DNA of 64,000 bases from a virus (IMGVR_UViG_3300043410_001256:30880-94879), one strand, 5' to 3'; positions 49,368-64,000 are shown, counted from the stretch's first letter. Notes: generated from the sequence alone by a model not told the origin. A program made the numbers and translations.

Positions 49368-49386
49368 TTATAGGGTTATAACTTTG

Positions 49387-49394
49387 CATAAATA
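49387..49394 (+). promoter_or_regulatory. Late promoter CATAAATA(TACG)
   Basis: Intergenic; GGAG SD follows. Confidence 0.7.
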
Positions 49395-49415
49395 TACGAA
49401 ATCGGAGTCCAGATA

Positions 49416-51992
49416 ATGGCATATAACATAGTAAAATCAGATAACACACCGTTGGCTACAATCAACGATGGTCAAACCAATACCACAGCCACTAGTTTAA
49501 CCTTGGTTGGTAAAAACTTTGCTGGGTATGGTACATTCTTAAATGAGAATTTTGTTAAACTATTAGAACATTTTGCTAGTGCTAACGAACCTGCTCATAA
49601 GATCACTGGACAACTTTGGTACCAAACTTCTACAAAAGTGTTGCAGGTATACAATGGTAGTGCATGGAAATCAATCTCCGGCGCACAATCTGTAGCAGAC
49701 GAGCCCACATACAAAGTTGCAGGCGACTTGTGGTTTGACTCAGTTAACCAACAGTTGAAAGTTTGGTCAGGTGCGGGCTGGGTCGTTATTGGACCAAGCT
49801 TCACATCCACAACTGGTACATCTGGTGCTGTTGCTGATACTGTTATTGACTCCAGTCAGTTCAGTCACGTGGTTGTTAAATTCTTTGTACAGAACCAATT
49901 GGTTGCTGTTCTAAGCAAAGACGCCGCATTCCAACCAGCTACAACCATTCCTGGATTCCCAACAATCAAGCCTGGTTTGAATTTGGCACGTGGTACCAGC
50001 CCTGAACTGATATTCTATGAAAACGCCAACAACGCCAGCTATCTGGGTAGTTTGGCAGCTGATCAGTATTTGACAAAAGACAATGCGTTACTAACCAGTA
50101 AATTGGTTATTCGTAACAACGATGGTATTGAATTAGAAGAACCTTCTGGTACAGTTACCAACTTCCAATTGAACATTAACAACAACAACATTCAATTGCT
50201 AAGTTTGATTCGTGGTAACGGTTTTATTATCCGTACCAAACCAGACAACGCTGGTGGTGCATATCAAACAGTTTTAGCAGTTGACAAGATCACTGGCTTG
50301 ATTACAGTTCTAAACGATCCTACTCAATCAGCTGGTATTGCCACAAAGAACTATGTTGACAACCGCGACGACAACACACGTACAATGTTGTTGAACAACG
50401 TAACTGCTATTAACAGTAACGTCAGTACATTGAAGTCAAACACAGATGTTGTCTACGGTAACGTTCGTACACTACAAAACCACCTAGGATTTAGAAAAGG
50501 TGGAGCAAATAGTCCTGACGATCAGAAGTATACAGAATTGTTTATTACCAACAACGAAAGTCTGGTTGGTAACTTATACACACTATGGAGCAACGTAGCT
50601 ACTATTGTTTCCAACGTATTAACACGCACCGGTGATGGTGGCCCTGGTGGTACAGTTGGATCATCAATGTATGCTAACGTCAGATCAATTCAAGGCCGTG
50701 TGTCTAACTTGGAAAACGATGCTTTCCGACGTGATGGTACATTGACACTAACTGGTTCTATTATTCCATCATCAGAAGACGCTAGAGATGTTGGTAGCAC
50801 TGGTTTCCGTATGCGCGAAGTGTTTGCAACAAAAGCAAACATTGGTGCAATCACAAACTTGGCAAGTATTAACTTAACAGGTGCTCGCGGCGCAACAGAC
50901 AGTTTCACTATTCGTGCTAACCCAGTTACACTCAGCGGTAACCTAGTGTTTGACGATTTGGACGGTGGCACAGCAAGCAATCCTCAGTTGGGTGTGCTAG
51001 GTGATGTTCGTATCACCGGTAGACTACAAACAGTTGGACATATTACTATTCCAAACGAAGCAGGATTTAATGAACAATATAACATTGGATCGTCTAATAC
51101 TTTCCGTTATAACAACATCTATGTTAAAACAGTTAACGCAGACGCAATCACACTAACAGGTACAGGTGGTTTGAGTTCTAGTGCAGATGCTAGTTTTGGT
51201 TCATTAACAATTAATAACCTATTCCCGTCAGCTGACATCACATACGATCTAGGTAAAGGTTCTCCAGCTGGTACTGAGAAACGCTGGTTGAATGTGTATG
51301 CAAGAAACTTTATCAGTGATACTGGTGTAACTTTAACCGCAACTGGTGCTAACAAAGGTATTCGTTGGTATTCAAGCGGCACCAGCGGCGAAGCAGACAT
51401 TGGCACAAGCTCAATGAGATTTGGTGTTGCCTATGTAGGTGGATACAGCAGTCCTCATTTGGTTATGGACAGCAGTGGTATTAAATATCAAACAGTTGGT
51501 GCAAGTCCTCCAAACGATGGCACACAAGATATTGGTACAAGCAGTAGAAAATTTGGTACCGCTTATATCAACAACGTGATTGGTACAGCATCATCAGCAA
51601 AATACGCTGACTTGGCAGAACGCTTTGCAGCCGATGCGGCTTATCCTCCAGGCACATTGTTGAAGATTGGTGGCGAGCATGAAGTTACTCTTGAAGACGC
51701 AATTTGCAGTGCTGAAGTACTAGGTGTGGTAAGTACTCAACCAGCTTATCTAATGAACAGAGAAGCAGGCGATGACAGTACTCATCCTGCTATTGCATTG
51801 TCTGGACGAGTACCGGTTAGAGTTGTTGGCCCAATTAGAAAAGGTCAACGCCTGGTTAGTGCAGGCAATGGATGTGCTAAAGCGGCAAATCCAATGGAAG
51901 CATCTTGGGAAACTGTGATTGGTAGAGCTTTGGAAACAAATGAGTATTCCGAAGAAAAACTAGTCATGTCAATTATTAAGGTAAGTTTATAA
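49416..51992 (+). CDS. Tail fibre/spike protein 2 with C-terminal intramolecular chaperone-like domain
   Basis: N-terminus paralogous to fibre 1; five D(I/L/V)G(S/T)...R(W/F/Y) shaft repeats; C-terminal YADLAERF...GVVSTQPAYLMN...IALSGRVPVRVVGPIRKGQRL (peptidase G2/IMC-like). Confidence 0.85.
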   Translation: MAYNIVKSDNTPLATINDGQTNTTATSLTLVGKNFAGYGTFLNENFVKLLEHFASANEPAHKITGQLWYQTSTKVLQVYNGSAWKSISGAQSVADEPTYKVAGDLWFDSVNQQLKVWSGAGWVVIGPSFTSTTGTSGAVADTVIDSSQFSHVVVKFFVQNQLVAVLSKDAAFQPATTIPGFPTIKPGLNLARGTSPELIFYENANNASYLGSLAADQYLTKDNALLTSKLVIRNNDGIELEEPSGTVTNFQLNINNNNIQLLSLIRGNGFIIRTKPDNAGGAYQTVLAVDKITGLITVLNDPTQSAGIATKNYVDNRDDNTRTMLLNNVTAINSNVSTLKSNTDVVYGNVRTLQNHLGFRKGGANSPDDQKYTELFITNNESLVGNLYTLWSNVATIVSNVLTRTGDGGPGGTVGSSMYANVRSIQGRVSNLENDAFRRDGTLTLTGSIIPSSEDARDVGSTGFRMREVFATKANIGAITNLASINLTGARGATDSFTIRANPVTLSGNLVFDDLDGGTASNPQLGVLGDVRITGRLQTVGHITIPNEAGFNEQYNIGSSNTFRYNNIYVKTVNADAITLTGTGGLSSSADASFGSLTINNLFPSADITYDLGKGSPAGTEKRWLNVYARNFISDTGVTLTATGANKGIRWYSSGTSGEADIGTSSMRFGVAYVGGYSSPHLVMDSSGIKYQTVGASPPNDGTQDIGTSSRKFGTAYINNVIGTASSAKYADLAERFAADAAYPPGTLLKIGGEHEVTLEDAICSAEVLGVVSTQPAYLMNREAGDDSTHPAIALSGRVPVRVVGPIRKGQRLVSAGNGCAKAANPMEASWETVIGRALETNEYSEEKLVMSIIKVSL

Positions 51993-51993
51993 A

Positions 51994-53052
51994 ATGGCAT
52001 ACAGCACCGGCGGCCTCATTGAAGCGCAACACTACAACCAATTGGTTTGGGGTAGTACCACTGGTGGTACATTGGTTACCACCAATAACAACCTAAACTA
52101 TGTATGGGGTCCTGGCTACGGTAACCGCGGGCTTAACCAAGACATGTCTAGCATTGTTGGATTGCCAAATGCCCACCTACTGGTTAACCCAATCAGCGGA
52201 ACAGATGCAGTTACTGGTACAAACTACAACGACGGAGTAGGAACGCTAACACAAGTTGACTCTACGCTTAATGTTAAGAGTCAACAGTGGATTGGTTTGA
52301 TGTCGGCTATCAACAGAGGATTGTATCATCAGAATCAATCAAATGTTGCACTGAGTCCTGCACCTGCATACGGTGGAACAATCAAGGTTATCAGCGGACT
52401 TCAAACTGCTGTTAATAACATTGCTGGTCAAACTGGTACTGCTAGAAACTCAGTGGTTAGAGCAGTTGCTGGTGGTAGTAAGACTTTTAGCTGGATCAGA
52501 GCAACCAGCGCAACCAATGCATCAACTAGTTTCACACGAAGCGTAAGTTGGTCCAATGGTAACAATGCACGTTGGTTTTTTAATGCAGGTGGCAAAATCA
52601 GAATCACAGCATCTGCATCCACTGCAAGTGGCGATAGAAGTGCCGCTATTGTTACAGTAATCAATGACCTCGGTGCTTGCGATTTTGGCTTTAACACCAA
52701 CAGTGGATTTGTTGGTGCTGATCCTGGGACCACAAACACAAACAAGGGTTATTGGAACATAGGCACCAGTTATGTACAGCTAGGAAAAAATCAATCAGTG
52801 TCAGGCTCAACATATCCAGGCACTTATGTAGCTATTTCGGCCAGACTAACAGGTGACACCAGCGATGGCGCAGTTGGATCATTATTAGAAGTTAAAATGG
52901 ACCTGTTTAGTGACTACGGCGGCACAGGTGCAGACCCTCGTTGGGGAACAGATAATATCAACGTGTCAGTTGGATTCAACATAGATGTATTTGATCCTTC
53001 CTATACTGGCGGCATGTTAACACGCAATTGGGCTGATCCAGATTTATTGTAA
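51994..53052 (+). CDS. Virion structural protein (fibre-associated)
   Basis: 352 aa G/S/T/N-rich beta protein; GYGNRG, ARWFFNAGGKIRI; follows fibres. Confidence 0.65.
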   Translation: MAYSTGGLIEAQHYNQLVWGSTTGGTLVTTNNNLNYVWGPGYGNRGLNQDMSSIVGLPNAHLLVNPISGTDAVTGTNYNDGVGTLTQVDSTLNVKSQQWIGLMSAINRGLYHQNQSNVALSPAPAYGGTIKVISGLQTAVNNIAGQTGTARNSVVRAVAGGSKTFSWIRATSATNASTSFTRSVSWSNGNNARWFFNAGGKIRITASASTASGDRSAAIVTVINDLGACDFGFNTNSGFVGADPGTTNTNKGYWNIGTSYVQLGKNQSVSGSTYPGTYVAISARLTGDTSDGAVGSLLEVKMDLFSDYGGTGADPRWGTDNINVSVGFNIDVFDPSYTGGMLTRNWADPDLL

Positions 53053-53069: not shown

Positions 53070-53077
53070 GCTAAGTA
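53070..53077 (+). promoter_or_regulatory. Variant late promoter GCTAAGTA heading the GT/radical SAM operon
   Basis: One mismatch to TAAATA; same 5-nt spacing to ATG as 46074; no SD. Confidence 0.5.
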
Positions 53078-53082
53078 TTTGC

Positions 53083-53394
53083 ATGGAAATTCATAGTCTA
53101 GTTGCAGAAATACGTCAGTCCACTGACATTCAAAGAAACAAGTTAAAACTAAGAGAACAAATCATGGGTGACCTCATGGTTACTCATAATGACGGCCTTT
53201 TCAAAGTCACTCCAGAATTAATTGCTTTCTTATCAGCCTGGGACAGCGATGAACTGTATCTTGAAGATCATTACGGCAATCCTGTTGAAGTAGACAGAGC
53301 TGTGTTACTAGACAGTTGCAAACGTCGATATCAAAAAGTCATGAATCAATGGCATAATCAATATGAACAACTACGCCAAGTTAGAAAAATCTAG
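53083..53394 (+). CDS. Hypothetical protein, possibly fibre assembly chaperone
   Basis: 103 aa, follows fibre genes; weak resemblance to DUF4376-type proteins. Confidence 0.5.
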   Translation: MEIHSLVAEIRQSTDIQRNKLKLREQIMGDLMVTHNDGLFKVTPELIAFLSAWDSDELYLEDHYGNPVEVDRAVLLDSCKRRYQKVMNQWHNQYEQLRQVRKI

Positions 53395-54133
53395 AGGAGT
53401 ATTGGTTTTTGCTAACAACACAGACACCATTGATTACATAGGTATTGCTAACAAAACAATACAATTAGCAAAGCATCATTTGGGTATTGAAACACTAGTT
53501 GTTACACAAGATTACCAAACCACATACACCAATGCCAGAACTGACATAGACACAGAAAAGTCTGTGCAATGGAATAACTTTGGCCGACATCGTGCATGGG
53601 AAGTCACTCCCTGGGATGAAACGCTGGTGATTGATGCCGACTATTTGGTTACAACACCTCGGCTGCTAACACTATTTGACTCACCGAGCGACTTGGTGCT
53701 GTGCCATCAAAACAACTACCTCTACGAAGATCCAGATCCAAAGTGTTATCTTCCCCCTGTGTGGGCCACAGTGTTCTTTTTTAGGCGCACTGAGCGCAAC
53801 AAACTATTCTTTGATCTAGTTGGCAAAATTGAACGCAACTGGATTTACTACAGAATTTTGTTTGGACTACCATATCGCAACTTTCGTAATGATCTTGCAT
53901 TTGCCATGGCTGAAAGAATCATGCATGGATACCAACTGCCACAGCACACACAGATGCCCTGGGCAATAACCACAATAGAAAAACCCTTGTTGGATATCAA
54001 TATCAACACAGACTGGATGGTGGTGCGAACCAAAGAACGTGCTGACGTATTACCAAGACAAGACCTGCATGTGATGAGCAAGCAGTGGCTACAAAGCGAA
54101 AAGCTAGACCATTTTATTGAGCAGGCATTATGA
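53363..54133 (+). CDS. Glycosyltransferase, GT-A fold (GT8-like)
   Basis: RGVLVFA...DYIGIA, TPWDETLVIDADYL (DxD), RNDLAF, HVMSK. Confidence 0.75.
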   Translation: MNNYAKLEKSRGVLVFANNTDTIDYIGIANKTIQLAKHHLGIETLVVTQDYQTTYTNARTDIDTEKSVQWNNFGRHRAWEVTPWDETLVIDADYLVTTPRLLTLFDSPSDLVLCHQNNYLYEDPDPKCYLPPVWATVFFFRRTERNKLFFDLVGKIERNWIYYRILFGLPYRNFRNDLAFAMAERIMHGYQLPQHTQMPWAITTIEKPLLDININTDWMVVRTKERADVLPRQDLHVMSKQWLQSEKLDHFIEQAL

Positions 54134-54963
54134 CAGTTGGCGTAATATCCATGGCACAGAACAACAGCACAACCAATTATTTGAGGTTGGCATATCTACA
54201 GCGGTTAAGTCTAAAACTGGTTTCACCTGACATTCCTTATGCTGTGGTAACAGACCAAGCAAGTCTTGACAGCATACCGCAGGAACATGCACAGATGTTT
54301 GATCATGTGATACTGTTAACCACAGACTGGGCACAGGATCAAGAATGGAAACAAAGAAACGATTGGCAACTGGCAGCACTAACACCATTCAATGAAACTA
54401 TAAAAGTAGAAACTGATCTATTGTTCACACGTGCAATTGATCACTGGTTTACAATGTTAAGACACAGAGATGTTGTACTAAGTCTAGGATGTAGAAATTA
54501 CCTAGGTGACCCAGCCGCCAGTAGAAAATATAGACAAGTGTTTGACAGCAACAATTTACCAGACACATACTCTGGATTAATGTACTGGCGCAACACAGTA
54601 ACCGCAAACAACTTCTTTCAATTGTGCAAAAGAATTTATAAATTTTGGGATCTAGTAAAGCAGGATCTTGCTTACTGCGATGATCCTGGCAGTAACGATT
54701 TAGTTTTTTCTATAGCCGCAAGATGCATTGGAGAAGAGTTAGTCACACTACCGGCAGCAGACTTTTTCAACATCACGCACATGAAGCCTGCTATAAATGG
54801 AAAAGTAGAACGCAAGAACTGGTTGAACGAACTGCACATAGAATTAGATCCACCTTATATTAGAGTAAACGGACAAGACCAAACTTACCCATTTCATTAT
54901 CAAAATAAAAATTGGGTCACAGACGAAATGATTAGAAAATATGAACACGCCATCAGAACTTGA
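54130..54963 (+). CDS. Glycosyltransferase-like, GT-A fold (GT8-like paralog)
   Basis: TPFNETIKVETDLLF (ExD), YSGLMYW, NDLVF, FHYQNK. Confidence 0.7.
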   Translation: MTVGVISMAQNNSTTNYLRLAYLQRLSLKLVSPDIPYAVVTDQASLDSIPQEHAQMFDHVILLTTDWAQDQEWKQRNDWQLAALTPFNETIKVETDLLFTRAIDHWFTMLRHRDVVLSLGCRNYLGDPAASRKYRQVFDSNNLPDTYSGLMYWRNTVTANNFFQLCKRIYKFWDLVKQDLAYCDDPGSNDLVFSIAARCIGEELVTLPAADFFNITHMKPAINGKVERKNWLNELHIELDPPYIRVNGQDQTYPFHYQNKNWVTDEMIRKYEHAIRT

Positions 54964-55324
54964 AATTGCCATTGCTGAGTTTTTTCAAATACAGGAAAAT
55001 CTCAAGCAACACCCTGTGGCCAATCAATATAGATGTTACTATCGAAAAGATGGATCTATAATGGATATAGTAATAGGTCCACCTTGGCCAGAACTAGATT
55101 TTGACTACATAGACATAACCAAATCACAAGCAGACCAGTGTACCAATACCACTACTGTTGTGAACAAAGAATTGGTTTTTGTTGACTTCTCGGAAGGATA
55201 TGTAGTAAAATTGCTTGAGGATTCAGATGGCGAACATACTGCCGTTACCAATCACATGGCCATTATTGTAGAACCCAACGAAGCATATAACGATGTCACA
55301 AGATACACAAAAAAATATACTTGA
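54941..55324 (+). CDS. Hypothetical protein
   Basis: 127 aa ORF overlapping both neighbours. Confidence 0.7.
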   Translation: MNTPSELEIAIAEFFQIQENLKQHPVANQYRCYYRKDGSIMDIVIGPPWPELDFDYIDITKSQADQCTNTTTVVNKELVFVDFSEGYVVKLLEDSDGEHTAVTNHMAIIVEPNEAYNDVTRYTKKYT

Positions 55325-56207
55325 TATTGCAGATCTTGATGTGATCTTCTTAACCTATGACGAGCCTAAAAAAGATGAGTTTTGGATTAAAGTTAAAAAC
55401 ATGGTACCGTGGGCCAAACGTGTGGATGGCGTCAAGGGCTCGGATGCGGCGCATAAAGCGGCAGCAGATGCAAGTGATACCGACCGTTTCATCTTGGTGG
55501 ATGGTGACAATATACCGGATCCAGGATTTTTTAATCTACAGCTGGCGCTGGATGATACTAATCGCGACTGTGTTTTTCGTTGGCGGGCTCGTAATCATAT
55601 CAATGGATTGATGTATGGCAATGGCGGTCTTAGTTGCTGGACCAAGAAGTTTGTACAAGAAATGCGTACACACGAAAACACAGATGGACGCAATGAGACC
55701 TTGGTAGAGTTTTGTTTTGCTCCTAACTACTGGAGCATGTATGATTGCTATTCTGTAACATATCCTAATCAAACACCATTCCAGGCCTGGAGAGCAGGAT
55801 TCCGTGAAGGAGTTAAGATGTGTTTGGATCGTGGCGCACGACCAAGTCTGAGCGAATTCAAACAAAGGGTACACAACAGGAATCTAGACAATCTCAGCAT
55901 CTGGCAAAATGTAGGAATGGATGTTGACAATGGAGCATGGGCCATTGCTGGCGCTAAACAAGGCACATGGAAAACCATGCTTGCAGATTGGGATTATACT
56001 CTGGTGCAAGACTTTGCTGAACTAGAACATCTATGGAACACAGAAGTAAAAACACGTGACCCGTTGGAAATGATTGACCATATGGGACAGGATCTGCACT
56101 ATCAACTGGATCTACCAATGGCATGTATGACAGTTGCACAGAGCAAGTTTTTCAAACATCATTATCGCAGTAATTTTGTAAACAAAGGAATAATGGTTCG
56201 TGACTAG
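55293..56207 (+). CDS. Glycosyltransferase, GT-A fold (GT2-like)
   Basis: DVIFLTYDE, AHKAAA, FILVDGDN (DxD), YGNGG, AWRAGFREGVK. Confidence 0.75.
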   Translation: MSQDTQKNILDIADLDVIFLTYDEPKKDEFWIKVKNMVPWAKRVDGVKGSDAAHKAAADASDTDRFILVDGDNIPDPGFFNLQLALDDTNRDCVFRWRARNHINGLMYGNGGLSCWTKKFVQEMRTHENTDGRNETLVEFCFAPNYWSMYDCYSVTYPNQTPFQAWRAGFREGVKMCLDRGARPSLSEFKQRVHNRNLDNLSIWQNVGMDVDNGAWAIAGAKQGTWKTMLADWDYTLVQDFAELEHLWNTEVKTRDPLEMIDHMGQDLHYQLDLPMACMTVAQSKFFKHHYRSNFVNKGIMVRD

Positions 56208-57570
56208 TGATTTCAAAGCCGCCGCAGAGGAAATGCAGGCCCGACTAGGCCCTGCACTCTGCCTGGCTAAATGGCAACAGGTTAGTTTACACCTGGGCAC
56301 TGGCATGACCAATAGTTGTTATCATCCACCACTGCACAAGATTCCCGTGGAGTTACTTGCAGACAATCCCAGTGCGCTACACAACACACCTCACAAGAAA
56401 CAACAGCGTGTGTTCATGTTAAAGAATGAACGTCCTAAAGAATGCTCCTACTGCTGGAGTGCAGAAAACAACCAACAACTCAGTGATAGACACTATCGCT
56501 CAGGCGAGCCATGGGCCGCTGAATATTATGACAAGATTGTAAATAGTACTGGAGAAGAAGATGTTGTCCCCTCTTATGTTGAAGTTAATTTTAGCAATGT
56601 TTGCAATCTTAAATGTAGTTATTGTAGTCCTCAGTTTTCCAGCCAGTGGGCGGCAGAGGTTAACGTACACGGTGCTTACCCTACTAGCAATCGCCATAAT
56701 GACCCTGAGTACTTTACAGGCACTAGACGCAATATTCGACACAGAGAAGACAACCCCTATGTTGACGCCTTCTGGGCCTGGTGGCCCGAACTCTACCCGC
56801 GTCTACAACATCTAAGACTCACTGGTGGTGAACCATTACTAGACTACAACACCTACAGAGTGTTTGAGTACGTGCTTGCACTACCCAAGCCAGATCTACA
56901 TCTAGACGTAACCAGCAACTTCAGCGTAGACTACAAGACCTTTGACAAATACATTGACTATGTTCAACGATTGTGCAAAACACAGATTGAACATTTCATG
57001 CAGTATGTTAGCCTTGACACAGGCGTGCCACATCAAGCTGAATATATTCGTTCTGGTCTTAACTGGCACACACTCACCAGAAACGTAGATCGTTATCTAA
57101 CTGACGTGCCAGAAAAAAACAGCCTTACCTTTATTGTAACAATAAACAACCTGAGCATTGTAGGGCTACAAGATCTATTGGACTACATACTGGAACTACG
57201 TTCCAAACACAGTCATACCTATCAGCGTGTGTGGTTTGATACACCATTGTTGCGTCAACCCGCCTGGCAGAGCATACAAACACTTACGCCTGCTTACCAA
57301 TTAAAAATGGAACAGGTAATTGACTTCATGCGCGAAAACGAATCCAATGACAGCTTTGTTGGCTTTAGAGATTATGAAATACAGCGCATGGAACGTAATC
57401 TTGTCTGGATGAAAGAACCACAAACACCTGAACGTCTAGCACGTGACCGTGCAGACTTTTATAGATTTTTCAATGAACATGATCGCAGACGTGAAACAGA
57501 TTTCTTAACAACGTTTCCTGAAATGCGTGAGTTCTGGAGCATGTGCAAATACTATGCCGAAACAGAATAA
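56200..57570 (+). CDS. Radical SAM enzyme 1 with N-terminal twitch-like domain
   Basis: CLAKW...SCYHP...ECSYCW; core CNLKCSYC; TGGEP; EYIRSG. Confidence 0.92.
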   Translation: MTSDFKAAAEEMQARLGPALCLAKWQQVSLHLGTGMTNSCYHPPLHKIPVELLADNPSALHNTPHKKQQRVFMLKNERPKECSYCWSAENNQQLSDRHYRSGEPWAAEYYDKIVNSTGEEDVVPSYVEVNFSNVCNLKCSYCSPQFSSQWAAEVNVHGAYPTSNRHNDPEYFTGTRRNIRHREDNPYVDAFWAWWPELYPRLQHLRLTGGEPLLDYNTYRVFEYVLALPKPDLHLDVTSNFSVDYKTFDKYIDYVQRLCKTQIEHFMQYVSLDTGVPHQAEYIRSGLNWHTLTRNVDRYLTDVPEKNSLTFIVTINNLSIVGLQDLLDYILELRSKHSHTYQRVWFDTPLLRQPAWQSIQTLTPAYQLKMEQVIDFMRENESNDSFVGFRDYEIQRMERNLVWMKEPQTPERLARDRADFYRFFNEHDRRRETDFLTTFPEMREFWSMCKYYAETE

Positions 57571-58891
57571 CGAAACAGACTTAGAATACAAACGCAGAGT
57601 GATTGACATCAAGAGTGAATCATTCTGTGGTGCCAAGTGGTACAATGCTACCATCTGGCTAGGCAGTGGACAGACAACCAGTTGTCACCATCCATTGCCA
57701 CATGCAATTGATCCGGAAGAGATCAAAACAAATCCCAGTGCTATTCACAACACGCCCAGAAAGAAATTTGAGCGTGAGCAAATGCAACGGGGCGAACGAC
57801 CAGCAGGCTGTGACTACTGCTGGAAGATTGAAGACATGGACAAGGATGCAATATCCGACCGTGTGTACAAAACAGTAATACACTCAGATGAGGATTTAGA
57901 AAATGCTTACACAAAACCAGCCACAGACAATGTCAACCTTCGCACGTTGGAAATTGCTTTTGACAGAACTTGTCAGTTTGCTTGCAGTTATTGTAACCCT
58001 GCTTTTAGTAGTACTTGGGTTAATGACATACGTAAAAACGGACCCTACACTAACTTGGTATCAGACGGGCGCAATCATTACACTCACCCTCATGATCATA
58101 GTCAACTTTATAAATTCGGTGAGACTAATCCGTATGTGGAGGCTTTTTTCCAGTGGTGGGAATCAGACCTCCACAAGAGTCTTAAAGAACTCCGAATCAC
58201 TGGAGGAGAACCACTCATGTCAGGACACACCTGGCAACTCATTGACTGGTTCAAACAAAACCAAGGACAAAGCCAAACACGGCTAGCCATTAACACAAAC
58301 CTTGGCAAGGAAGTGGACGTTGACCGTTTGTTAGCGTCAACACAGGGCATTGAGCTAGATATCTATACTAGTTGCGAATCAATTGGCCTACACGCAGAGT
58401 ACATACGTGATGGCCTAGATTGGAAAGCATGGCTAGACAATGTAGAAAAGATTGCACAAAGCGGCATACGTGGTCTCCATGTTATGTGTACCATCAACGC
58501 ATTGTGCTTGCCTGGATTACCTGTGTTCTTGTCTTACATGATGGCATTGAAGAAAACATATGGTAGAGACTTTCCTAGCATGAGTTTCAATATCTTGCGC
58601 TTTCCGAGTTTCCAGAGTGTGTATGTATTACCACTAGAAGACCGCAAGTGGTATGCAAAAAGCATTGCAGGATTCATAGTTGATTACAAAGGCGATAGCC
58701 TGCTACACGAGCATGAAATCAATCAGCTGACTCGCTTGCATGACTATTTGCAAGAGCCAGTTGTGGGGCCTGACTTGGCAAGAATGCGTAACGATTTCAA
58801 ACAGTTTTACACACAATACGATCAACGCAGAGGAAAGAACTTTATAGATACTTTCCCTGAGTTTAAGGAATTCTATGAGCAAATACCCTAA
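57554..58891 (+). CDS. Radical SAM enzyme 2 with N-terminal twitch-like domain
   Basis: CGAKW...SCHHP...GCDYCW; CQFACSYC; TGGEP; ATG 57554 preferred over 57527. Confidence 0.92.
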   Translation: MPKQNNETDLEYKRRVIDIKSESFCGAKWYNATIWLGSGQTTSCHHPLPHAIDPEEIKTNPSAIHNTPRKKFEREQMQRGERPAGCDYCWKIEDMDKDAISDRVYKTVIHSDEDLENAYTKPATDNVNLRTLEIAFDRTCQFACSYCNPAFSSTWVNDIRKNGPYTNLVSDGRNHYTHPHDHSQLYKFGETNPYVEAFFQWWESDLHKSLKELRITGGEPLMSGHTWQLIDWFKQNQGQSQTRLAINTNLGKEVDVDRLLASTQGIELDIYTSCESIGLHAEYIRDGLDWKAWLDNVEKIAQSGIRGLHVMCTINALCLPGLPVFLSYMMALKKTYGRDFPSMSFNILRFPSFQSVYVLPLEDRKWYAKSIAGFIVDYKGDSLLHEHEINQLTRLHDYLQEPVVGPDLARMRNDFKQFYTQYDQRRGKNFIDTFPEFKEFYEQIP

Positions 58892-60182
58892 GGACTACAC
58901 ATACAACACACGAATTCCTATTCGTGGAGACTTTCACAACATGCCGGAACGGCATCAAGACCTGCTGACTACAGACAAACACTTTTGCATGATACCATGG
59001 TTGCACATGCACGCCTTTCCTGATGGTCGTGCGTATCCTTGCTGTATGGGCGAGTACAATATGCCTATTGGCAACCTAAAAGAACACACAATGAAGGAAG
59101 TCTGGAATAGCGAAGGCATGCGAAAGATGCGTGTAAACATGCTTAATGGCAAACCCAGCAGAGAGTGTGGTCGTTGCTATGAGCAGGAAAAAGCAGGCTT
59201 TGTTAGTATGCGTCACAGTAGCAGTCAAAACTTTGGACACAACATTGGCCTTGTAGATACTACAAATGAAGATGGTAGTTTGGATTGGTTTGAACTGCGC
59301 TACTATGATATACGTTTTTCTAATGTGTGCAATTTCCGTTGCCGCAGTTGTGGTAGCATTTTCAGCAGTAACTGGTACAACGATGAAGTAAAGTTGTTTG
59401 GACCAAAGCGCCAGCCAAGAATCATGTATGCTGGTCGCCATGAAGAAGACATGTGGGAACAGATGCAAGAGCATATTCCGCATCTAGAACAAATCTACTT
59501 TGCTGGTGGCGAACCCTTGATCATGGAAGAACACTATCGCTTGCTCAATGAGCTGGTCAAACGTGAAATGTTTCATGTGCGATTGATCTACAATTCAAAT
59601 TTTAGCAAACTGGCCTATAAAGACCAAGACGTACTTGAACTGTGGAAGAAGTTTAGATCAGTCAGCGTTGGTGCAAGTCTTGATGCCAGCGGCAGTCGTG
59701 CAGAGTACATTCGCAAAGGTACAGACTGGGAAGAAATTGTAGAAAACAGAAAACGCATGTTGGCCGTGTGTCCAAACGTGGACTTTTACATCAGTGCCAC
59801 AGTTAGTATTTTTAATGCATTTCACGTTGTAGACTTTCATCGCGAATGGATTGATTTAGGATTGATCAAACCACAGGATATCAACATCAACATTCTACAA
59901 AGCCCAGAGTGGTATCGTGTGGATGTGTTGCCCAAAGAAATCAAAGACCAGATACGACAAAAAGTCAAAGAGCATGTGGAGTGGCTAACACCACAGGACA
60001 AACTCACACGTGCTACCAGCGGATTCAATGGACTGATAAGTTTTATGGATGCCGAGGACCAGACTGAAAAATACATCAAAGAATTTTTCAAACGCACACA
60101 CGAGTTAGATAACCTGCGTGGAGAAAACTTTTACGATACATTCCCTGAGCTTGCAGGTTTGAGAAAATATGACATTACCTAA
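58875..60182 (+). CDS. Radical SAM enzyme 3 with N-terminal twitch domain
   Basis: CMIPW...YPCC...ECGRCY; CNFRCRSC; AGGEP. Confidence 0.92.
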   Translation: MSKYPKDYTYNTRIPIRGDFHNMPERHQDLLTTDKHFCMIPWLHMHAFPDGRAYPCCMGEYNMPIGNLKEHTMKEVWNSEGMRKMRVNMLNGKPSRECGRCYEQEKAGFVSMRHSSSQNFGHNIGLVDTTNEDGSLDWFELRYYDIRFSNVCNFRCRSCGSIFSSNWYNDEVKLFGPKRQPRIMYAGRHEEDMWEQMQEHIPHLEQIYFAGGEPLIMEEHYRLLNELVKREMFHVRLIYNSNFSKLAYKDQDVLELWKKFRSVSVGASLDASGSRAEYIRKGTDWEEIVENRKRMLAVCPNVDFYISATVSIFNAFHVVDFHREWIDLGLIKPQDININILQSPEWYRVDVLPKEIKDQIRQKVKEHVEWLTPQDKLTRATSGFNGLISFMDAEDQTEKYIKEFFKRTHELDNLRGENFYDTFPELAGLRKYDIT

Positions 60183-61386
60183 AACCATATGCATGTTGCC
60201 TTGGATCAGCATTGAAGCCAGTCCAATTGGAACAATACGTCCGTGCTGTCTTGCACAGGATGAAATCGTTGATGATGATGGTACTAGGTACGACCTGCTG
60301 ACCTCCACACTGGAAGATGCTTACAACAGTCAGTACATGCAAAACCTACGCAAACAGTTTCTCGCAGGAGAACAACCTGCTACTTGCAGTAGATGCTGGA
60401 CCGAGGAACGTGCAGGCAAAGACAGCAAACGCATTCACAGTCAGCGTAGACTGCACCACTTAGAAAGCAAGATTGATTGGTACAATGAAAAACCCAATCA
60501 ACTATGGTTCTTGGATCTCAAGCTGGGCAACATCTGTAATCTAAAATGTCGTATATGCGGCAGTTGGAGCAGTAGTAAATGGGCTGAAGAAGATATGAAA
60601 ACTTCAGCTCACGGAGACAAGAAACAGCACAGCGCATATCGTTGGCTCAAACAAGGTGCATGGCCACGCACCACACTGACATTTTGGGATAACTTAAAAA
60701 GTCTATTGCCCAACATCAAGTATATAGAATTCACAGGCGGTGAGCCCTGGCTCATACAAGAGCATTGGGAGTTGCTGAAGTTTGCAGTTGAAGAAGGTCA
60801 CAGCAATCACATAGACATACACTACAACACCAATGCTACGGTAGAGCTAGGTGAGCACACACTGGTATGGAATCATTTTGGTCGTGTGGATATTGCTTTC
60901 AGTATAGACAACGTGCATGATCGTTTTGAAGTTGAAAGATACGGTGCCAAGTGGAGTCTAGCAAACAAGATCATTGACGATGTGCATTCTGCTAAACAGT
61001 CTCATGCACCCAACATTACCACGCAACTGTGTTTTACTATCAACATTCAAAATGTTTACTATATAGATGAGCTACTGACCTGGGCAGATACCAAACCCTT
61101 TGGCAGTATCTATTTTAACATGTTGCACAGTCCAGACCATATGAACATTCAGTACATGACACCCAATGCAAAAGCACTGGTGCTGGATAAACTAAAGTCT
61201 GTTGACTGGAGAACTAACTTTTATAAAAATGAAATACAAAACGTGATTAATTTTATAGAACAAGGTCCTGGCAGTGATGGACAAGAGTTTGTGTCACGTA
61301 TGAAAAAAATGGATGCATACAGAAAACAGAACTTTGTAGATACACATCCAGAAATAGCCAAGGCAATGGGTTATGGACAAGCCTAA
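60169..61386 (+). CDS. Radical SAM enzyme 4 with N-terminal twitch domain
   Basis: CMLPW...RPCC...TCSRCW; CNLKCRIC; TGGEP. Confidence 0.92.
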   Translation: MTLPKTICMLPWISIEASPIGTIRPCCLAQDEIVDDDGTRYDLLTSTLEDAYNSQYMQNLRKQFLAGEQPATCSRCWTEERAGKDSKRIHSQRRLHHLESKIDWYNEKPNQLWFLDLKLGNICNLKCRICGSWSSSKWAEEDMKTSAHGDKKQHSAYRWLKQGAWPRTTLTFWDNLKSLLPNIKYIEFTGGEPWLIQEHWELLKFAVEEGHSNHIDIHYNTNATVELGEHTLVWNHFGRVDIAFSIDNVHDRFEVERYGAKWSLANKIIDDVHSAKQSHAPNITTQLCFTINIQNVYYIDELLTWADTKPFGSIYFNMLHSPDHMNIQYMTPNAKALVLDKLKSVDWRTNFYKNEIQNVINFIEQGPGSDGQEFVSRMKKMDAYRKQNFVDTHPEIAKAMGYGQA

Positions 61387-62668
61387 GAATCTTTGCATGG
61401 CACCATGGGTACACACATACCTAAGTCCTCAGACTGAACGTAGAATGTGTTGTGCAAGTCGCGAACCTGCACAGAACTTTCAACAGTATATTGACACCAG
61501 TGCCGGCACTGGCCGATACATACCTATCACACTGGACGAACACTGGAACGGTGAGCACATGCAATCCGTTAGACGTAGAATGATGGCCGGCGAAACACTA
61601 CCAGAGTGCGAAGTATGCAATGACAAACTGTTGAATACATCTGTGTATAGAGATTACTTTAATCAATTGTTTAGTCACAAATGGGATGAAGTAATTGAAT
61701 CCACCGCCGCAGACGGCACAACAACCATGTTGCCTGTAAGCTGGGACTATCGTTTTAGTAACCTTTGCAATTTCAAATGTCGCATGTGTGGCGACATGTT
61801 GAGCAGTGCCTGGGAAAGTGAACAGCGCCAGCACAACATGATTGATCATACTAATCCTAAAAATGCATGGATGCAACCAGCAGTGAGAAAAGAAATATCA
61901 CAGTTTCAAGATACCATTGTTGAACAAGAATTTGCACGTGCAGTTGAAGAACATCGTGTAGAAGAAGTCTATTGGGTTGGTGGCGAACCATTGATGTACG
62001 AACAACATTGGAAATACATGCGCCGTATCATTGAACTAGGAGATGGACACAAAGTTTATGCTAGATATAATACTAATCTTAGCCGTGTTTCTTATCACGG
62101 TTGGAATCTCTATAAAGATATTTTGTCTGGGTTACGAGATTGGCAGATATGTGCGAGTATCGACGGAACCGGCGCCATTGGCGAATACATCCGCACAGGA
62201 TTAAACTACGAACAATGGTTAGACAACTTCAAACAAGGACTGGAAATAAAACAGCACCGCAGACAAATGAGATTGGATTTTACTCTTACTTTGCCTGGCA
62301 TGTTTGAAGTAGAAAATATACAACGTCTAGCACGAGAACTAGACGTAGATGTTTTAGCAAAGGTTGTGTTTAGTTTTAGCCCGGACATTGTTATGTCACC
62401 GCTGGCACTACCCAGACATCTATTGGATGAATGGGTAGATGAAATCTTGCACGTCATTGATAAAGGCGCACTACGTGACACGATGGTCCAGTTAAAAACT
62501 AGACCAACCTTTGCTGAACAATGGCCTGACTCATACAACGAAGCCATTGTAAAAGGAAAACAACGTATGTTACAATTAGAAAGCATACGCACACAGCCAA
62601 TCACAATGGACAAGATATTAGAGCAAAGACCAGAAGTACACAAATGGTGGAGAAGCATTGATGCATGA
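61373..62668 (+). CDS. Radical SAM enzyme 5 with N-terminal twitch domain
   Basis: CMAPW...RMCC...ECEVCN; CNFKCRMC; VGGEP. Confidence 0.92.
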   Translation: MDKPKNLCMAPWVHTYLSPQTERRMCCASREPAQNFQQYIDTSAGTGRYIPITLDEHWNGEHMQSVRRRMMAGETLPECEVCNDKLLNTSVYRDYFNQLFSHKWDEVIESTAADGTTTMLPVSWDYRFSNLCNFKCRMCGDMLSSAWESEQRQHNMIDHTNPKNAWMQPAVRKEISQFQDTIVEQEFARAVEEHRVEEVYWVGGEPLMYEQHWKYMRRIIELGDGHKVYARYNTNLSRVSYHGWNLYKDILSGLRDWQICASIDGTGAIGEYIRTGLNYEQWLDNFKQGLEIKQHRRQMRLDFTLTLPGMFEVENIQRLARELDVDVLAKVVFSFSPDIVMSPLALPRHLLDEWVDEILHVIDKGALRDTMVQLKTRPTFAEQWPDSYNEAIVKGKQRMLQLESIRTQPITMDKILEQRPEVHKWWRSIDA

Positions 62669-63725
62669 TGTTAGAATAGTTTTAAGTAGCGACACCGGCA
62701 CCATTGACTACACCATAAAAGCGCATGACAATCAGCTTGCACGTGACTGGCTGGTTGCATTAGAAAACATACTCAAAGCTGGGCTCACGCTTAACAAGAA
62801 CTTTTGTTTCTTGGGTTTTCCCAACACACCAAGAGACCTAGACTTTTTGTGTAATAAACTAAACCATGCCATTAGAGAAATAAACCTACACGACTGGCAA
62901 CAATACGGACTAGAACCTTATGTGATTGAAGAACACTTTGTTCCAGACGCAGTAAGATTTGGACCTGAGTACCCAAAGCCTCCGGGCATGAGTGACAGCA
63001 GTTTGTTTTTAAGCGTCAAGCACGATATACTGAATCGCATACACAATCACTTTGAAAGGCTGCAGGGCACAGTTGAAAATGAAAGTGCATATCACAAACA
63101 CGCTCCTTTCAATGTACGCAGAGCCATTGGACATCTTAACACAGTATGTCATGAGATTGAAAGTTTAATACTAAGCTATAGAAAACACGTGCTATTGCCT
63201 GAATGGACACGCCCAAGTCAGATTACAACATTTCACAGCGCACCTCGTTATGAACTAACATCACAGCACAAGCAGTTGTTCAAACAGAATGCGTACAATA
63301 AAAGATTCGGCGAAGTCTACATGCACTGGGCACAAATAGGCAAAACTCTGTTTGAAGTGTTTCGCGACGAACACGCACCCAAGCTGGATACTGCCACCTG
63401 CGAAGCTATTACACATCTCAAATACTACAGTGGCGAGTTTGATATTGAATGGGGACGAGATCTACTTGAAGGACAGTTTCCCTGGCATGACAAACAGATG
63501 CAGGATTTCCGTCAATGGTTGGCTGATAACCAGTTTGATATCAATGACGAAAATCTATGTTTAGGTTACGCACCAATTGGACAAGTGGAAATATTAAAAT
63601 CCTTTGGCACAGAAAATCCTGCAGAAGTCTGGCGAATACTGGAACAGCACCTAAACATTCAATCAATTGAATGCGGTAGCACAAAGATCGACTACAACTA
63701 TACCTGGAGAGATCAAGATGTATGA
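62661..63725 (+). CDS. Hypothetical protein with His/Glu helical motifs (possible metalloenzyme)
   Basis: LNRIHNHFE, LNTVCHEIE, YMHWAQIGKTLFEVFRDE; GGAG SD before ATG 62661. Confidence 0.7.
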   Translation: MHDVRIVLSSDTGTIDYTIKAHDNQLARDWLVALENILKAGLTLNKNFCFLGFPNTPRDLDFLCNKLNHAIREINLHDWQQYGLEPYVIEEHFVPDAVRFGPEYPKPPGMSDSSLFLSVKHDILNRIHNHFERLQGTVENESAYHKHAPFNVRRAIGHLNTVCHEIESLILSYRKHVLLPEWTRPSQITTFHSAPRYELTSQHKQLFKQNAYNKRFGEVYMHWAQIGKTLFEVFRDEHAPKLDTATCEAITHLKYYSGEFDIEWGRDLLEGQFPWHDKQMQDFRQWLADNQFDINDENLCLGYAPIGQVEILKSFGTENPAEVWRILEQHLNIQSIECGSTKIDYNYTWRDQDV

Positions 63726-64000
63726 TATGTGTATAGTATCTCTTGGCAGTGACGAACATCTTGTAGAGCAGTTGAATACACAGTATCCTCATGCTCGCAC
63801 AACTCGTTTCTATAGAAGCATGTTTTCCACAGTGATACGTTGTATTGAATACGCACGTACCAGTCATGTATGGATTGTGTTGTCCTGTAGCGATTGTAAA
63901 AACTTTGACTTTAACTATGTGCCTGCCCCTTGGGAAGAAAACCAAATACACGTATGGGCGGCAGGAACTCAAAAGTACGGAGACATACTGCTGGTGCCCA
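63718..64000 (+). CDS. Partial CDS, degenerate GT-A-like domain related to 55293..56207
   Basis: Not in ORF track; manual translation MYDMCIVSLG...ARTSHVWIVLSCSDCKNFDFNYVPAPWEENQIHVW...KYGDILLVP, open to window end; GGAG SD; overlaps previous stop. Confidence 0.65.
   Translation, partial: MYDMCIVSLGSDEHLVEQLNTQYPHARTTRFYRSMFSTVIRCIEYARTSHVWIVLSCSDCKNFDFNYVPAPWEENQIHVWAAGTQKYGDILLVP

What the first reader, a model, noticed from the sequence alone, without database searches (positions are those of the whole stretch)
53070..64000. Late-expressed glycosyltransferase plus five-radical-SAM operon attached to the fibre genes: candidate virion decoration pathway
Seen: more than 10.9 kb of genes that all overlap their neighbours (4-32 nt), i.e. 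one coupled operon. It holds 2 small proteins, 3 GT-A enzymes, 5 tandem radical SAM paralogs, a His/Glu protein and a further GT-like ORF. It starts immediately after the fibre genes at a variant late promoter (GCTAAGTA). Known: DNA hypermodification enzymes of T4-like phages are expressed before or during replication; twitch-domain radical SAMs such as BtrN oxidise sugar-like substrates; virion glycosylation exists in some phages and giant viruses. Inference: late timing and position point to building and radical tailoring of a glycan (or other PTM) on virion proteins rather than DNA. The Ser/Thr-rich fibres and the 6086-aa protein are obvious acceptors. I know of no characterised phage pathway with this architecture.
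Basis: partly seen in the sequence, partly recalled or inferred. Interest (0 to 1): 0.88.

Follow-up and report, generated by a model that had tools for sequence, protein, structure and literature searches.

The report
Phage glycosyltransferase plus radical-SAM operon
Right behind its tail-fibre genes, an uncultured giant freshwater phage carries a tightly packed operon of sugar-transferring enzymes and five iron-sulfur "radical SAM" enzymes of a catalogued but apparently never-tested family; it probably builds and chemically edits a sugar decoration, and a cultured Ralstonia phage with a mini-version makes this testable.

Summary
Window 53083-64000 is a chain of 12 overlapping + strand genes, cut by the contig end. 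It starts 30 nt after the last fibre gene.

- **Radical SAM genes:** all five are NCBIfam NF033640 members, with the twitch domain at the N-terminus (293-426 bits, cut-off 170).
- **Sugar transferases:** O2 and O3 are paralogs with GT8/glycogenin-like similarity. O5 models confidently as a GT-A fold with an invariant DGD motif.
- **O11:** a cyclophilin-like barrel with a His/Glu-bearing helical insert.

Gene order and the link to fibre genes are kept in four related IMG/VR phage lineages. A minimal form sits in cultured Ralstonia phage RsoM2USA, beside virion proteins verified by mass spectrometry. Relatives add sugar aminotransferase, acetyl-, carbamoyl- and methyltransferases. Bdellovibrionota chromosomes carry all five radical SAM subtypes, and one Oligoflexia protein fuses a radical SAM to an O5-type domain.

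Most likely this is a pathway that builds a glycan and edits it by radical chemistry. The target is unproven. Virion proteins are favoured on position, and known entry enzymes for DNA modification were not found in a 90%-complete relative.

GCTAAGTA is unique in the window, but TAAGTA is conserved before O1 in relatives. Timing is untested.

This scan noted the same architecture on at least five other phage genomes.

The parts
46785..53052 (+). Three tail-fibre-type genes directly upstream: F1 46785-49367, F2 49416-51992, F3 51994-53052. A late-promoter-like CATAAATA lies at 49387-49394.
   Evidence: PHROG tail-fibre and virion-structural hits. S+T content is 18-24%. TAAATA motifs sit upstream of structural genes. 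F2 homologs lie directly upstream of the operon in four relatives.
53070..53077 (+). GCTAAGTA. Its core TAAGTA (53072-53077) is a conserved element 5 nt before the O1 start codon.
   Evidence: Unique in the window and at chance level. TAAGTA is conserved upstream of O1 in L011, L009, L050 and RsoM2USA. Its function is untested.
53083..53394 (+). O1, a 103-aa conserved small soluble protein of unknown role.
   Evidence: No family hit. Orthologs head every copy of the operon, including RsoM2USA gp354.
53363..54133 (+). O2, a GT8-like glycosyltransferase with IDADYL as its DxD motif.
   Evidence: Paralog of O3. The joint O2/O3 profile hits glycogenin-1 at E 1.2e-4.
54130..54963 (+). O3, a GT8-like glycosyltransferase with ExD (VETDLL) and a conserved C-terminal His.
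54941..55324 (+). O4, a 127-aa acidic small protein that evolves fast.
   Evidence: 38% identity to L011, 29% to L008, marginal beyond that. No family hits.
55293..56207 (+). O5, a GT-A-fold transferase (residues about 8-160, invariant DGD) plus a C-terminal helical domain. It is the founding member of a very large family with no Pfam model.
   Evidence: AF2 model with pLDDT 93. Foldseek top hit is PBCV-1 A64R at E 2.7e-4, followed by TarS, TarP and SunS. VIA-align gives Z 8-9.5 to GT-A enzymes. More than 8000 metagenome homologs. DGD is conserved.
56200..57570 (+). R1, an N-terminal-twitch radical SAM of subtype 1.
   Evidence: NF033640 at 316 bits. Forms its own orthologous clade.
57527..58891 (+). 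R2, an N-terminal-twitch radical SAM of subtype 2.
   Evidence: NF033640 at 293 bits. Clade includes RsoM2USA gp202.
58875..60182 (+). R3, an N-terminal-twitch radical SAM of subtype 3.
   Evidence: NF033640 at 426 bits. Pfam SPASM at residues 38-102, ahead of Radical_SAM at 147-303.
60169..61386 (+). R4, an N-terminal-twitch radical SAM of subtype 4.
   Evidence: NF033640 at 339 bits. SPASM at residues 8-77.
61373..62668 (+). R5, an N-terminal-twitch radical SAM of subtype 5.
   Evidence: NF033640 at 297 bits.
62658..63725 (+). O11, a cyclophilin-like beta-barrel with an inserted four-helix bundle that carries conserved His, Glu and Cys residues. Possibly a metal site.
   Evidence: AF2 model with pLDDT 77.5. 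VIA-align Z 8-9.4 to cyclophilins. Invariant residues. More than 5000 homologs, none with a Pfam domain.
63667..64000 (+). O12, N-terminal part only because the contig ends here; the likely start is 63718. The full protein in L011 is 459 aa, with a C-terminal half that resembles O5 but has lost DGD.
   Evidence: The N-terminal module gives only E 0.23 to SpsA.

Best explanation
This is a conserved cytoplasmic pathway, probably co-transcribed with the tail-fibre genes, that assembles a sugar-containing structure and then edits it by radical chemistry.

Proposed steps:
- Two GT8-like retaining transferases (O2, O3) and the O5-type GT-A transferase use host nucleotide sugars to build a short glycan.
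- The five non-interchangeable N-terminal-twitch radical SAM enzymes each abstract a hydrogen from a sugar or sugar-linked position. This could perform epimerisation, oxidation, dehydration or cross-linking.
- The single auxiliary Fe-S cluster of the twitch domain would help bind or oxidise the substrate.
- O11 and O12 are accessory factors of unknown chemistry.
- The acceptor favoured by gene position is a virion protein: the Ser/Thr-rich fibres or the giant structural protein.

Shown: the gene set, the folds and motifs, the family membership, the synteny, and the fusion.

Inferred: sugar as substrate, late timing, and virion proteins as acceptor.
For: - **Enzyme identities:** five intact NF033640 enzymes; GT8-like O2 and O3; GT-A fold with an invariant DGD in O5.
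- **Viral glycosyltransferase matches for O5:** the capsid-glycosylating PBCV-1 A64R and the glycosyltransferase of mycobacteriophage Che8.
- **Conserved order:** O1-O2-O3-(O4)-O5-R1..R5-O11-O12 is fixed in L011, L009, L008 and L014. Each R subtype forms its own orthologous clade.
- **Fibre linkage:** fibre homologs lie directly upstream in all four IMG/VR relatives.
- **RsoM2USA:** gp355 (fibre-like) through gp348 forms a mini-operon next to an NDP-sugar epimerase/dehydratase (gp358) and to virion proteins ORF356, 359 and 361, which were verified by mass spectrometry.
- **Added sugar-tailoring genes in relatives:** DegT aminotransferase, hexapeptide acetyltransferase, carbamoyltransferase and O-methyltransferase.
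- **Fusion:** an Oligoflexia protein joins radical SAM + SPASM to an O5-type domain, and O5-type genes sit beside radical SAM arrays in Bdellovibrionota.
- **Transcription context:** a 30-nt gap, no terminator, a conserved TAAGTA, and a late-like CATAAATA before F2.
- **Solubility:** all 12 proteins are soluble.
- **DNA entry enzymes:** no ThyA-family or TGT gene was found in the 90%-complete relative; the Tet/JBP search gave no answer because nothing matched in any control genome.
Against: - No expression data exist for this phage.
- No member of NF033640 has a tested activity, and none has a solved-structure relative.
- The glycosyltransferase assignments are at fold or weak-profile level, with no Pfam hit.
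- The window's own operon has no nucleotide-sugar synthesis gene.
- Bdellovibrionota carry the same modules without virions. Their 116 neighbouring genes show no sugar-pathway enrichment: GT2 appears in 2 of 116, other radical SAMs in 14.
- SPASM/twitch enzymes more often modify peptides. One Elusimicrobia homolog is fused to Sel1 protein-binding repeats.
- A position next to fibre genes is also where T4-like phages keep hypervariable accessory cassettes (PMC7029224).
Confidence: 0.4

Rival explanations
1. Protein or peptide modification without sugar chemistry. The radical SAM enzymes would install cross-links, epimerisations or oxidations directly on a protein: a fibre, the giant protein, or the small proteins O1 and O4. 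The transferases would act separately.
For: Most characterised SPASM/twitch enzymes mature peptides or proteins (established knowledge). Weak NCBIfam side-hits point to sactipeptide, WgkB and DynA maturases. A Sel1-repeat fusion exists in Elusimicrobia. O11 has a cyclophilin-like fold. Two small conserved ORFs lie in the operon.
Against: There is no RRE/PqqD, protease or exporter, and no leader-and-core-like peptide. The auxiliary domain is a 4-Cys N-terminal twitch, not a C-terminal 7-Cys SPASM. The radical SAM genes are tightly fused or linked to GT-A domains. Sugar-tailoring genes are inserted in relatives.
Confidence: 0.15
2. Remodelling of the host envelope (LPS, capsule or a surface glycoprotein) during infection, to block superinfection or to aid release.
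For: This is the published reading for GT8 genes and radical SAM cassettes in the fibre-adjacent hypervariable region of pelagimyophages (PMC7029224). It is also the reading for glycosyltransferase clusters of jumbo cyanophages (PMC7824862). GT8 includes LPS core transferases (established knowledge).
Against: All 12 proteins are soluble, with no Gtr-, Wzx- or Wzy-like membrane component. The block is a conserved core, not hypervariable: O5 and R1-R3 are 74-85% identical to L011, against 39-63% for the fibres F2 and F3. It spans phages of very different hosts and habitats, from freshwater to soil Ralstonia.
Confidence: 0.12
3. Synthesis of a soluble modified nucleotide-sugar or other small molecule, for example a metabolic or anti-defence effector, rather than a decoration on a macromolecule.
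For: The radical SAM genes give weak side-hits to nucleotide-acting enzymes: viperin, MoaA and QueE. In Paenibacillus, single homologs sit in clusters with ketoacyl synthases and short-chain dehydrogenases, which look like natural-product clusters. L014 inserts purine-pathway genes.
Against: Three to four transferase-type enzymes imply an acceptor. The block is strictly linked to fibre genes.
Confidence: 0.12
4. Hypermodification (glycosylation plus tailoring) of the phage DNA.
For: Phage DNA hypermodification pathways use glycosyltransferases, and at least one uses a radical SAM enzyme (established knowledge). RsoM2USA has two ThyA-family genes, one of them divergent. A TET-associated glycosyltransferase appears as a weak fold hit.
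Against: No ThyA-family or TGT/DpdA gene was found in the 90%-complete relative G001, which has the full operon; the Tet/JBP search was uninformative because its control also found nothing. The block sits behind fibre genes on the late-gene strand. Bdellovibrionota chromosomes carry the modules.
Confidence: 0.08

Closest known systems
NCBIfam NF033640, N_Twi_rSAM (twitch domain-containing radical SAM protein)
   Same: All five R proteins match end to end, far above the curated cut-off. They share the N-terminal Cys cluster, CX3CX2C, GGEP and a C-terminal FPE motif.
   Different: The family is only catalogued. No paper, assay or solved structure was found. Here five ancient subtypes sit in a fixed order in a phage.
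BtrN and related twitch radical SAM enzymes that act on sugar-like substrates (established knowledge)
   Same: A radical SAM core with one auxiliary [4Fe-4S] domain of the twitch type, in a sugar-pathway context.
   Different: The domain order is reversed, with the twitch first. No significant sequence match to solved structures was found. The substrate is unknown.
Virus-encoded virion glycosylation: chlorovirus PBCV-1 A64R, and mycobacteriophage Che8-type virion glycosylation (Freeman et al. 2023, cited in PMC12582341)
   Same: Soluble virus-encoded GT-A transferases lie next to structural genes. The O5 model matches A64R (2p6w) and the Che8 glycosyltransferase at fold level.
   Different: Those systems have no radical SAM enzymes. 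The similarity is of fold only (9-14% identity). Glycans on this phage's virion have not been shown.
GT8 family (glycogenin, LgtC, LPS and adhesin glycan-extending transferases)
   Same: The O2/O3 profile aligns with glycogenin across the nucleotide-binding half and the DxD motif. A C-terminal His is conserved.
   Different: No Pfam PF01501 hit. Only about 100 residues align.
Fibre-adjacent glycosyltransferase and radical SAM cassettes of pelagimyophages and cyanomyophages (PMC7029224)
   Same: T4-like phages with GT8 genes and radical SAM cassettes beside the tail-fibre genes.
   Different: Those were described only as variable cassettes, presumed to alter host LPS. Here the block is a conserved, ordered core.
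Phage thymidine or cytosine DNA hypermodification clusters
   Same: Several transferases plus a radical enzyme in one phage operon.
   Different: No base-activating enzyme was found in the near-complete relative. The position is among late structural genes.

Membership tests
NF033640 N_Twi_rSAM | Whole-protein score above NCBI's curated cut-off (170 bits), matched end to end | tested here: met
   R1-R5 score 316, 293, 426, 339 and 297 bits, covering about positions 1-398 of the model.
NF033640 N_Twi_rSAM | CX3CX2C radical SAM cluster motif and a GGE-type SAM-binding motif | tested here: met
   C152, C156 and C159 are invariant and G211 is invariant; G212-E213 are near-invariant in 12 sequences. 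The motif is visible in all five translations.
NF033640 N_Twi_rSAM | Twitch/SPASM-like Cys cluster placed N-terminal to the core | tested here: met
   Pfam SPASM lies at residues 38-102 (R3) and 8-77 (R4), with a weak match at 8-83 (R5), all ahead of Radical_SAM. C38, C57, C98 and C101 are conserved.
NF033640 N_Twi_rSAM | Reductive SAM cleavage and a defined substrate | not testable with these tools
   No assay is reported in the papers searched.
GT8 retaining glycosyltransferases (O2, O3) | Sequence membership (Pfam PF01501 or a clear profile match) | tested here: inconclusive
   No Pfam hit at E 0.01. The profile hits glycogenin-1 and -2 at E 1.2e-4 to 6e-3 over about 100 residues.
GT8 retaining glycosyltransferases (O2, O3) | DxD metal and nucleotide-sugar motif, plus a distal His | tested here: met
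   The second Asp (D96) and H256 are invariant in 10 sequences. O2 has DAD and O3 has ETD.
GT-A fold glycosyltransferase (O5) | Alpha/beta/alpha GT-A nucleotide-binding fold | tested here: met
   The model has pLDDT 93. Foldseek gives E 2.7e-4 to 2p6w. VIA-align gives Z 9.5 to 8.1, rmsd 3.1-3.9, 134-149 residues aligned, to B4GALNT1, WrtF, SunS, SpsA and A64R. Nucleotidyltransferases of the same fold score Z about 8.
GT-A fold glycosyltransferase (O5) | DxD motif after the fourth strand | tested here: met
   DGD is conserved in all O5 orthologs and in bacterial homologs. It is lost in the O12 C-terminal copy of L011, L008 and L009.
GT-A fold glycosyltransferase (O5) | Membership of a described GT family (Pfam/CAZy-type model) | tested here: not met
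   No Pfam, PHROG or NCBIfam hit. None of more than 8000 homologs carries a Pfam domain. O5 therefore works like a GT-A enzyme but is not filed in a known family.
Phage virion glycosylation system | Transferase genes linked to, and expressed with, virion structural genes | tested here: inconclusive
   Linkage is met in five lineages. Expression could not be tested because no RNA run holds the sequence.
Phage virion glycosylation system | Glycan found on virion proteins | not testable with these tools
   This needs mass spectrometry or glycan staining. RsoM2USA virion mass spectrometry covered only the most abundant bands (PMC8504454).
Phage DNA hypermodification pathway | A base-activating entry enzyme (ThyA-type hydroxymethylase, TGT/DpdA or TET/JBP) in the same genome | tested here: not met
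   No ThyA-family or TGT gene was found in G000 (27% complete) or G001 (90% complete). The TET/JBP search was uninformative because nothing matched in any control genome. RsoM2USA does have two ThyA-family genes.
RiPP radical SAM/SPASM maturase system | Adjacent precursor peptide, an RRE/PqqD-like recognition domain, and a protease or exporter | tested here: not met
   No such Pfam or NCBIfam hits were found in O1-O12. O1 and O4 are 103-127-aa proteins without leader-and-core features.
O-antigen/LPS modification (Gtr-type) module | Membrane-embedded components (flippase, bactoprenol GT, integral GT) | tested here: not met
   No 19-residue window exceeds Kyte-Doolittle 1.71 in any of the 12 proteins.

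The most novel reading that the evidence does not exclude
Jumbo phages, and Bdellovibrionota, use a fixed set of five N-terminal-twitch radical SAM enzymes to edit a protein-linked glycan after it is assembled. In the phage that glycan would sit on tail fibres or other virion proteins. This would be the first radical-SAM-tailored structural glycan of a virus, and the first assigned chemistry for NF033640 and for the very large O5-type transferase family.
Probability: 0.3. Interest if true: 0.85.

Novelty: new variant of a known kind. Interest (0 to 1): 0.7.

Why it matters
- **Untested families:** the radical SAM family (NF033640), the O5-type transferase family (more than 8000 metagenome clusters) and the O11 family (more than 5000) are abundant in freshwater and marine viromes. 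I found no experimental work on the radical SAM family, and none of the listed O5 or O11 homologs carries a name or a Pfam domain.
- **New viral chemistry:** a fixed five-enzyme radical pathway joined to glycosyltransferases and to tail-fibre genes would be a new kind of viral post-translational or glycan chemistry. It could affect host recognition, virion stability or evasion of host defences.
- **Evolutionary link:** the shared module connects jumbo phages with predatory Bdellovibrionota.
- **Testability:** cultured phage RsoM2USA carries a minimal version (gp354-gp348, plus gp202). The question can therefore be answered with ordinary phage genetics, virion mass spectrometry and anaerobic enzymology.

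Tried and rejected
- **Close phage relatives:** megablast of the block against 50,697 phage records found no match.
- **Family scans:** Pfam, PHROG and NCBIfam gave nothing for O1-O5, O11 and O12.
- **PDB profile searches:** nothing significant for O5, O11, the O12 N-terminal part (E 0.23 to SpsA) or R3.
- **ESM Atlas:** only a sub-threshold GT2 lead for O5, and nothing for O11.
- **O11 fold:** Foldseek found no match. The cyclophilin-like reading rests on VIA-align Z 8-9.4, which is near the background level for unmatched models.
- **GCTAAGTA as a recurrent promoter:** rejected, with 1 site against 1.9 expected. Sigma-70 and terminator scans were at chance level.
- **Bacterial neighbourhoods:** the Pfam tally of 116 genes gave no pathway signal.
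- **Expression:** no RNA holder is listed for the stretch.
- **Tet_JBP search:** uninformative, because nothing matched in any control genome.
- **Literature:** Freeman et al. 2023 is not held in the library. Searches for the family name and for jumbo phage + radical SAM + glycosyltransferase found nothing relevant.
- **Discarded ideas:** that each N-terminal twitch is really the C-terminal domain of the preceding gene. The first paralog has one too, and NF033640 matches each ORF end to end. The possibility that O1 is a fibre chaperone was considered and is not excluded.

Full report
**Setting.** The window is the last 64 kb of a 94.9-kb linear IMG/VR contig with an estimated completeness of 27%. 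It comes from an uncultured T4-like jumbo myovirus. The window holds portal, prohead protease and baseplate genes and gp46/gp47 homologs. The gp46 homolog's best matches, at about 50% identity, are in Pseudomonas phage PA5oct and in Sinorhizobium and Agrobacterium jumbo phages. The only sequencing runs that hold the stretch are freshwater metagenomes.

**Anatomy.** From 53083 to the contig end, twelve + strand ORFs overlap one another at every junction.
- The chain begins 30 nt after the third of three fibre-type genes, F1-F3. These have PHROG tail-fibre hits and 18-24% Ser+Thr.
- No terminator-like hairpin lies in that gap.
- All twelve products are soluble.
- In the closest relative, L011, the twelfth gene is 459 aa and the next genes are on the opposite strand. 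The operon therefore has 12 genes, and the window lacks only about 350 codons of O12.

**The radical SAM genes.**
- R1-R5 each match NCBIfam NF033640, 'N_Twi_rSAM', over its whole length at 293-426 bits, against a cut-off of 170.
- Pfam places a SPASM-type domain before the radical SAM core.
- The alignment shows a conserved four-Cys N-terminal cluster, CX3CX2C, GGEP and a C-terminal FPE motif.
- The paralogs are only 20-28% identical to each other.
- Each one forms its own well-supported clade with its positional orthologs in other phages. Each clade also has Bdellovibrionota sisters (FastTree; a quick tree, so deep branches are uncertain).
- The five are therefore old, non-redundant subtypes, not recent duplicates.
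- No paper, assay or solved structure for the family was found.

**The transferases.**
- O2 and O3 are paralogs (hhalign 98.5%).
- Their joint profile hits glycogenin-1 and -2 (GT8) at E 1.2e-4 across the nucleotide-binding half and the DxD motif. A distal His is invariant.
- O5 has no family hit, but more than 8000 metagenome homologs, the listed ones at 68% identity or more. All that carry a name are called 'hypothetical'.
- Its AlphaFold model has pLDDT 93. Residues about 8-160 form a GT-A fold. The Foldseek top hit is the chlorovirus capsid glycosyltransferase A64R, followed by TarS, TarP, SunS and ThuS. VIA-align gives Z 8-9.5.
- Among viral models it matches many annotated glycosyltransferases, including that of mycobacteriophage Che8.
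- A DGD motif is invariant in O5 orthologs and in bacterial homologs.
- The C-terminal helical half of O5 has no match.
- The C-terminal half of O12 is O5-like (hhalign 99.3%), but it has lost DGD in L011, L008 and L009.
- The N-terminal module of O12, the only part in the window, remains unassigned.

**O11, O1 and O4.**
- O11 has more than 5000 homologs, none with a Pfam domain. It models at pLDDT 77.5 as a cyclophilin-like barrel with Z 8-9.4, which is close to background.
- An inserted four-helix bundle carries the conserved residues H122, N126, H129, E133, C164, H165, E166 and E168, all invariant except H122, which is nearly so. This may be a metal site.
- O1 is conserved at the head of every copy of the operon.
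- O4 evolves fast.

**Conservation.**
- The order O1-O2-O3-(O4)-O5-R1..R5-O11-O12 recurs in IMG/VR contigs L011, L009, L008 and L014/L010/L015.
- In all four genomes a homolog of fibre F2 lies directly upstream.
- Contigs filed as bacterial MAGs (Haliscomenobacter EUL_031, Rickettsiales MED657) carry the same operon. These genomes also hold a phage portal at 60-65% identity, so the contigs are almost certainly mis-binned phage. A Verrucomicrobia TMED56 contig carries the operon too, but no portal was found in that genome.
- Cultured Ralstonia jumbo phage RsoM2USA holds a minimal version:

| RsoM2USA gene | Counterpart in the window |
|---|---|
| gp355 | fibre-like, N-terminus resembles F1/F2 |
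| gp354 | O1 |
| gp353 | O2 |
| gp352 | O3 |
| gp351 | O4 position |
| gp350 | O5 (38% identity) |
| gp349 | R1-type radical SAM |
| gp348 | O5-like domain with DGD |
| gp358 | NDP-sugar epimerase/dehydratase, just upstream |
| gp202 | R2-type radical SAM, elsewhere in the genome |

- ORF356, ORF359 and ORF361, immediately upstream in RsoM2USA, were identified in virions by mass spectrometry (PMC8504454).
- Relatives insert typical sugar-tailoring genes: DegT/EryC1 aminotransferase, hexapeptide acetyltransferase, carbamoyltransferases, an O-methyltransferase and DUF6071. L014 also has purine-pathway genes and extra radical SAM genes.

**Cellular relatives.**
- NF033640 genes form tandem arrays of 2-9 in Bdellovibrionota chromosomes.
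- One Bacteriovoracaceae contig has members of all five phage subtypes. It has Obg next door, and no portal was found in its genome.
- O5-type genes sit beside such arrays in several loci.
- An Oligoflexia protein fuses a radical SAM core and a SPASM domain, in the usual order, to an O5-type domain. This is the strongest indication that the two enzyme types act on one substrate.
- The wider bacterial neighbourhoods show no pathway enrichment.
- One Elusimicrobia homolog carries Sel1 repeats.

**Promoter claim.**
- GCTAAGTA is unique in the window and expected by chance.
- Structural genes here are preceded by NNTAAATA 20-35 nt upstream. One such motif stands before F2.
- The hexamer TAAGTA is nevertheless conserved just before O1 in L011, L009, L050 and RsoM2USA, within spacers that otherwise cannot be aligned. 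It is therefore a real element.
- Whether it is a promoter is untested; it lies only 5 nt from the ATG. Read-through from the fibre promoter is equally possible.
- No RNA data exist for this stretch.

**Interpretation.** A pathway that builds a glycan and then tailors it by radical chemistry fits best. The evidence is three to four GT-A-type enzymes, the radical SAM-transferase fusion, and the sugar-tailoring insertions.

The target is not established. The evidence on each candidate is:
- **Virion proteins:** favoured by the conserved position behind fibre genes, by solubility, and by analogy with virus-encoded virion glycosylation (Freeman et al. 2023, cited in PMC12582341; PBCV-1 A64R).
- **DNA modification:** made less likely because no ThyA-type or TGT gene was found in a 90%-complete relative. 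The Tet/JBP search had no working control. RsoM2USA does have two ThyA-family genes.
- **Host-envelope remodelling:** this is the published guess for similar cassettes in pelagimyophages (PMC7029224). It fits poorly with an all-soluble, strongly conserved block.
- **Direct protein modification or a small-molecule product:** both remain open.

**Earlier notes of this scan.** The same architecture was reported on at least five other phage genomes, with the same conclusion of a sugar-tailoring pathway with an unknown target. What I add here:
- the RsoM2USA mini-operon
- the conserved TAAGTA element
- the radical SAM-O5 fusion
- the five-subtype match to a Bdellovibrionota chromosome
- the O5 and O11 models

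Noticed in passing
window 10987-11919 (-) and 13635-14522 (-): Two further radical SAM genes of a different type flank the gp46 (SbcC-like) gene. They have no N-terminal twitch and give weak hits to W_rSAM_matur and phrog_21308. With these the window holds seven radical SAM genes.
   Followed up: partly
window 27403-45663 (+): A single 6086-aa ORF lies among the structural genes. It is strongly acidic (net charge about -196) and has 17% Ser+Thr. RsoM2USA has a counterpart of more than 288 kDa, verified in virions (ORF361).
   Followed up: no
L072:11362-13269 (-), Oligoflexia MAG JAALKR010000004.1: A 635-aa fusion protein. It has a radical SAM core (CX3CX2C at residues 22-29), a C-terminal-type SPASM (about 281-371), and an O5-type GT-A domain with DGD (400-629). 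It sits beside N-twitch radical SAM genes.
   Followed up: yes
L096 (RsoM2USA MG752970.1, record 215949-223553): This cultured Ralstonia jumbo phage carries a minimal fibre-O1-O2-O3-x-O5-rSAM-O5' operon (gp355-gp348). All its genes are annotated as hypothetical. An NDP-sugar epimerase/dehydratase (gp358) lies between virion genes verified by mass spectrometry.
   Followed up: yes
L017/L018 (NZ_JBBAKG010000003.1 and ...001.1), L050/L052/L064 (NZHE01...), L016 (NHDJ01000025.1): Contigs filed under bacterial MAGs (Haliscomenobacter sp. EUL_031, Rickettsiales MED657, Verrucomicrobia TMED56) carry the phage operon. The first two genomes also hold phage portal genes at 60-65% identity, so they are probably mis-binned jumbo-phage contigs.
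   Followed up: partly
P0260, P0272, P0301 (Tara/ENA marine proteins, 890-1215 aa): Marine metagenome proteins hold two tandem O5-type modules. These are followed by many copies of an approximately 20-residue repeat (consensus roughly LRKAV.E.N.HSLFRL) and a C-terminal domain with methyltransferase-like motifs. A few carry Pfam GT2.
   Followed up: no
L020:7221-9227 (+), Elusimicrobiota MAG: An N-twitch radical SAM fused to N-terminal Sel1 repeats, which are a protein-interaction module.
   Followed up: no
L008:9950-12466 (+) and L050:6906-9113 (+): Two N-twitch radical SAM units fused into single proteins of 838 aa and 735 aa in related phage contigs.
   Followed up: no
L014:15821-18303 (+): A relative inserts a glutamine-synthetase-like gene, SAICAR synthetase and AIR carboxylase inside the operon, between the R5 and O11 orthologs.
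   Followed up: no
L009:16720-18753 (+): The O12 counterpart in this relative repeats the N-terminal O12 module several times in tandem (motif FW.LD...DFDF.W.P.PWE..H.H.F).
   Followed up: no
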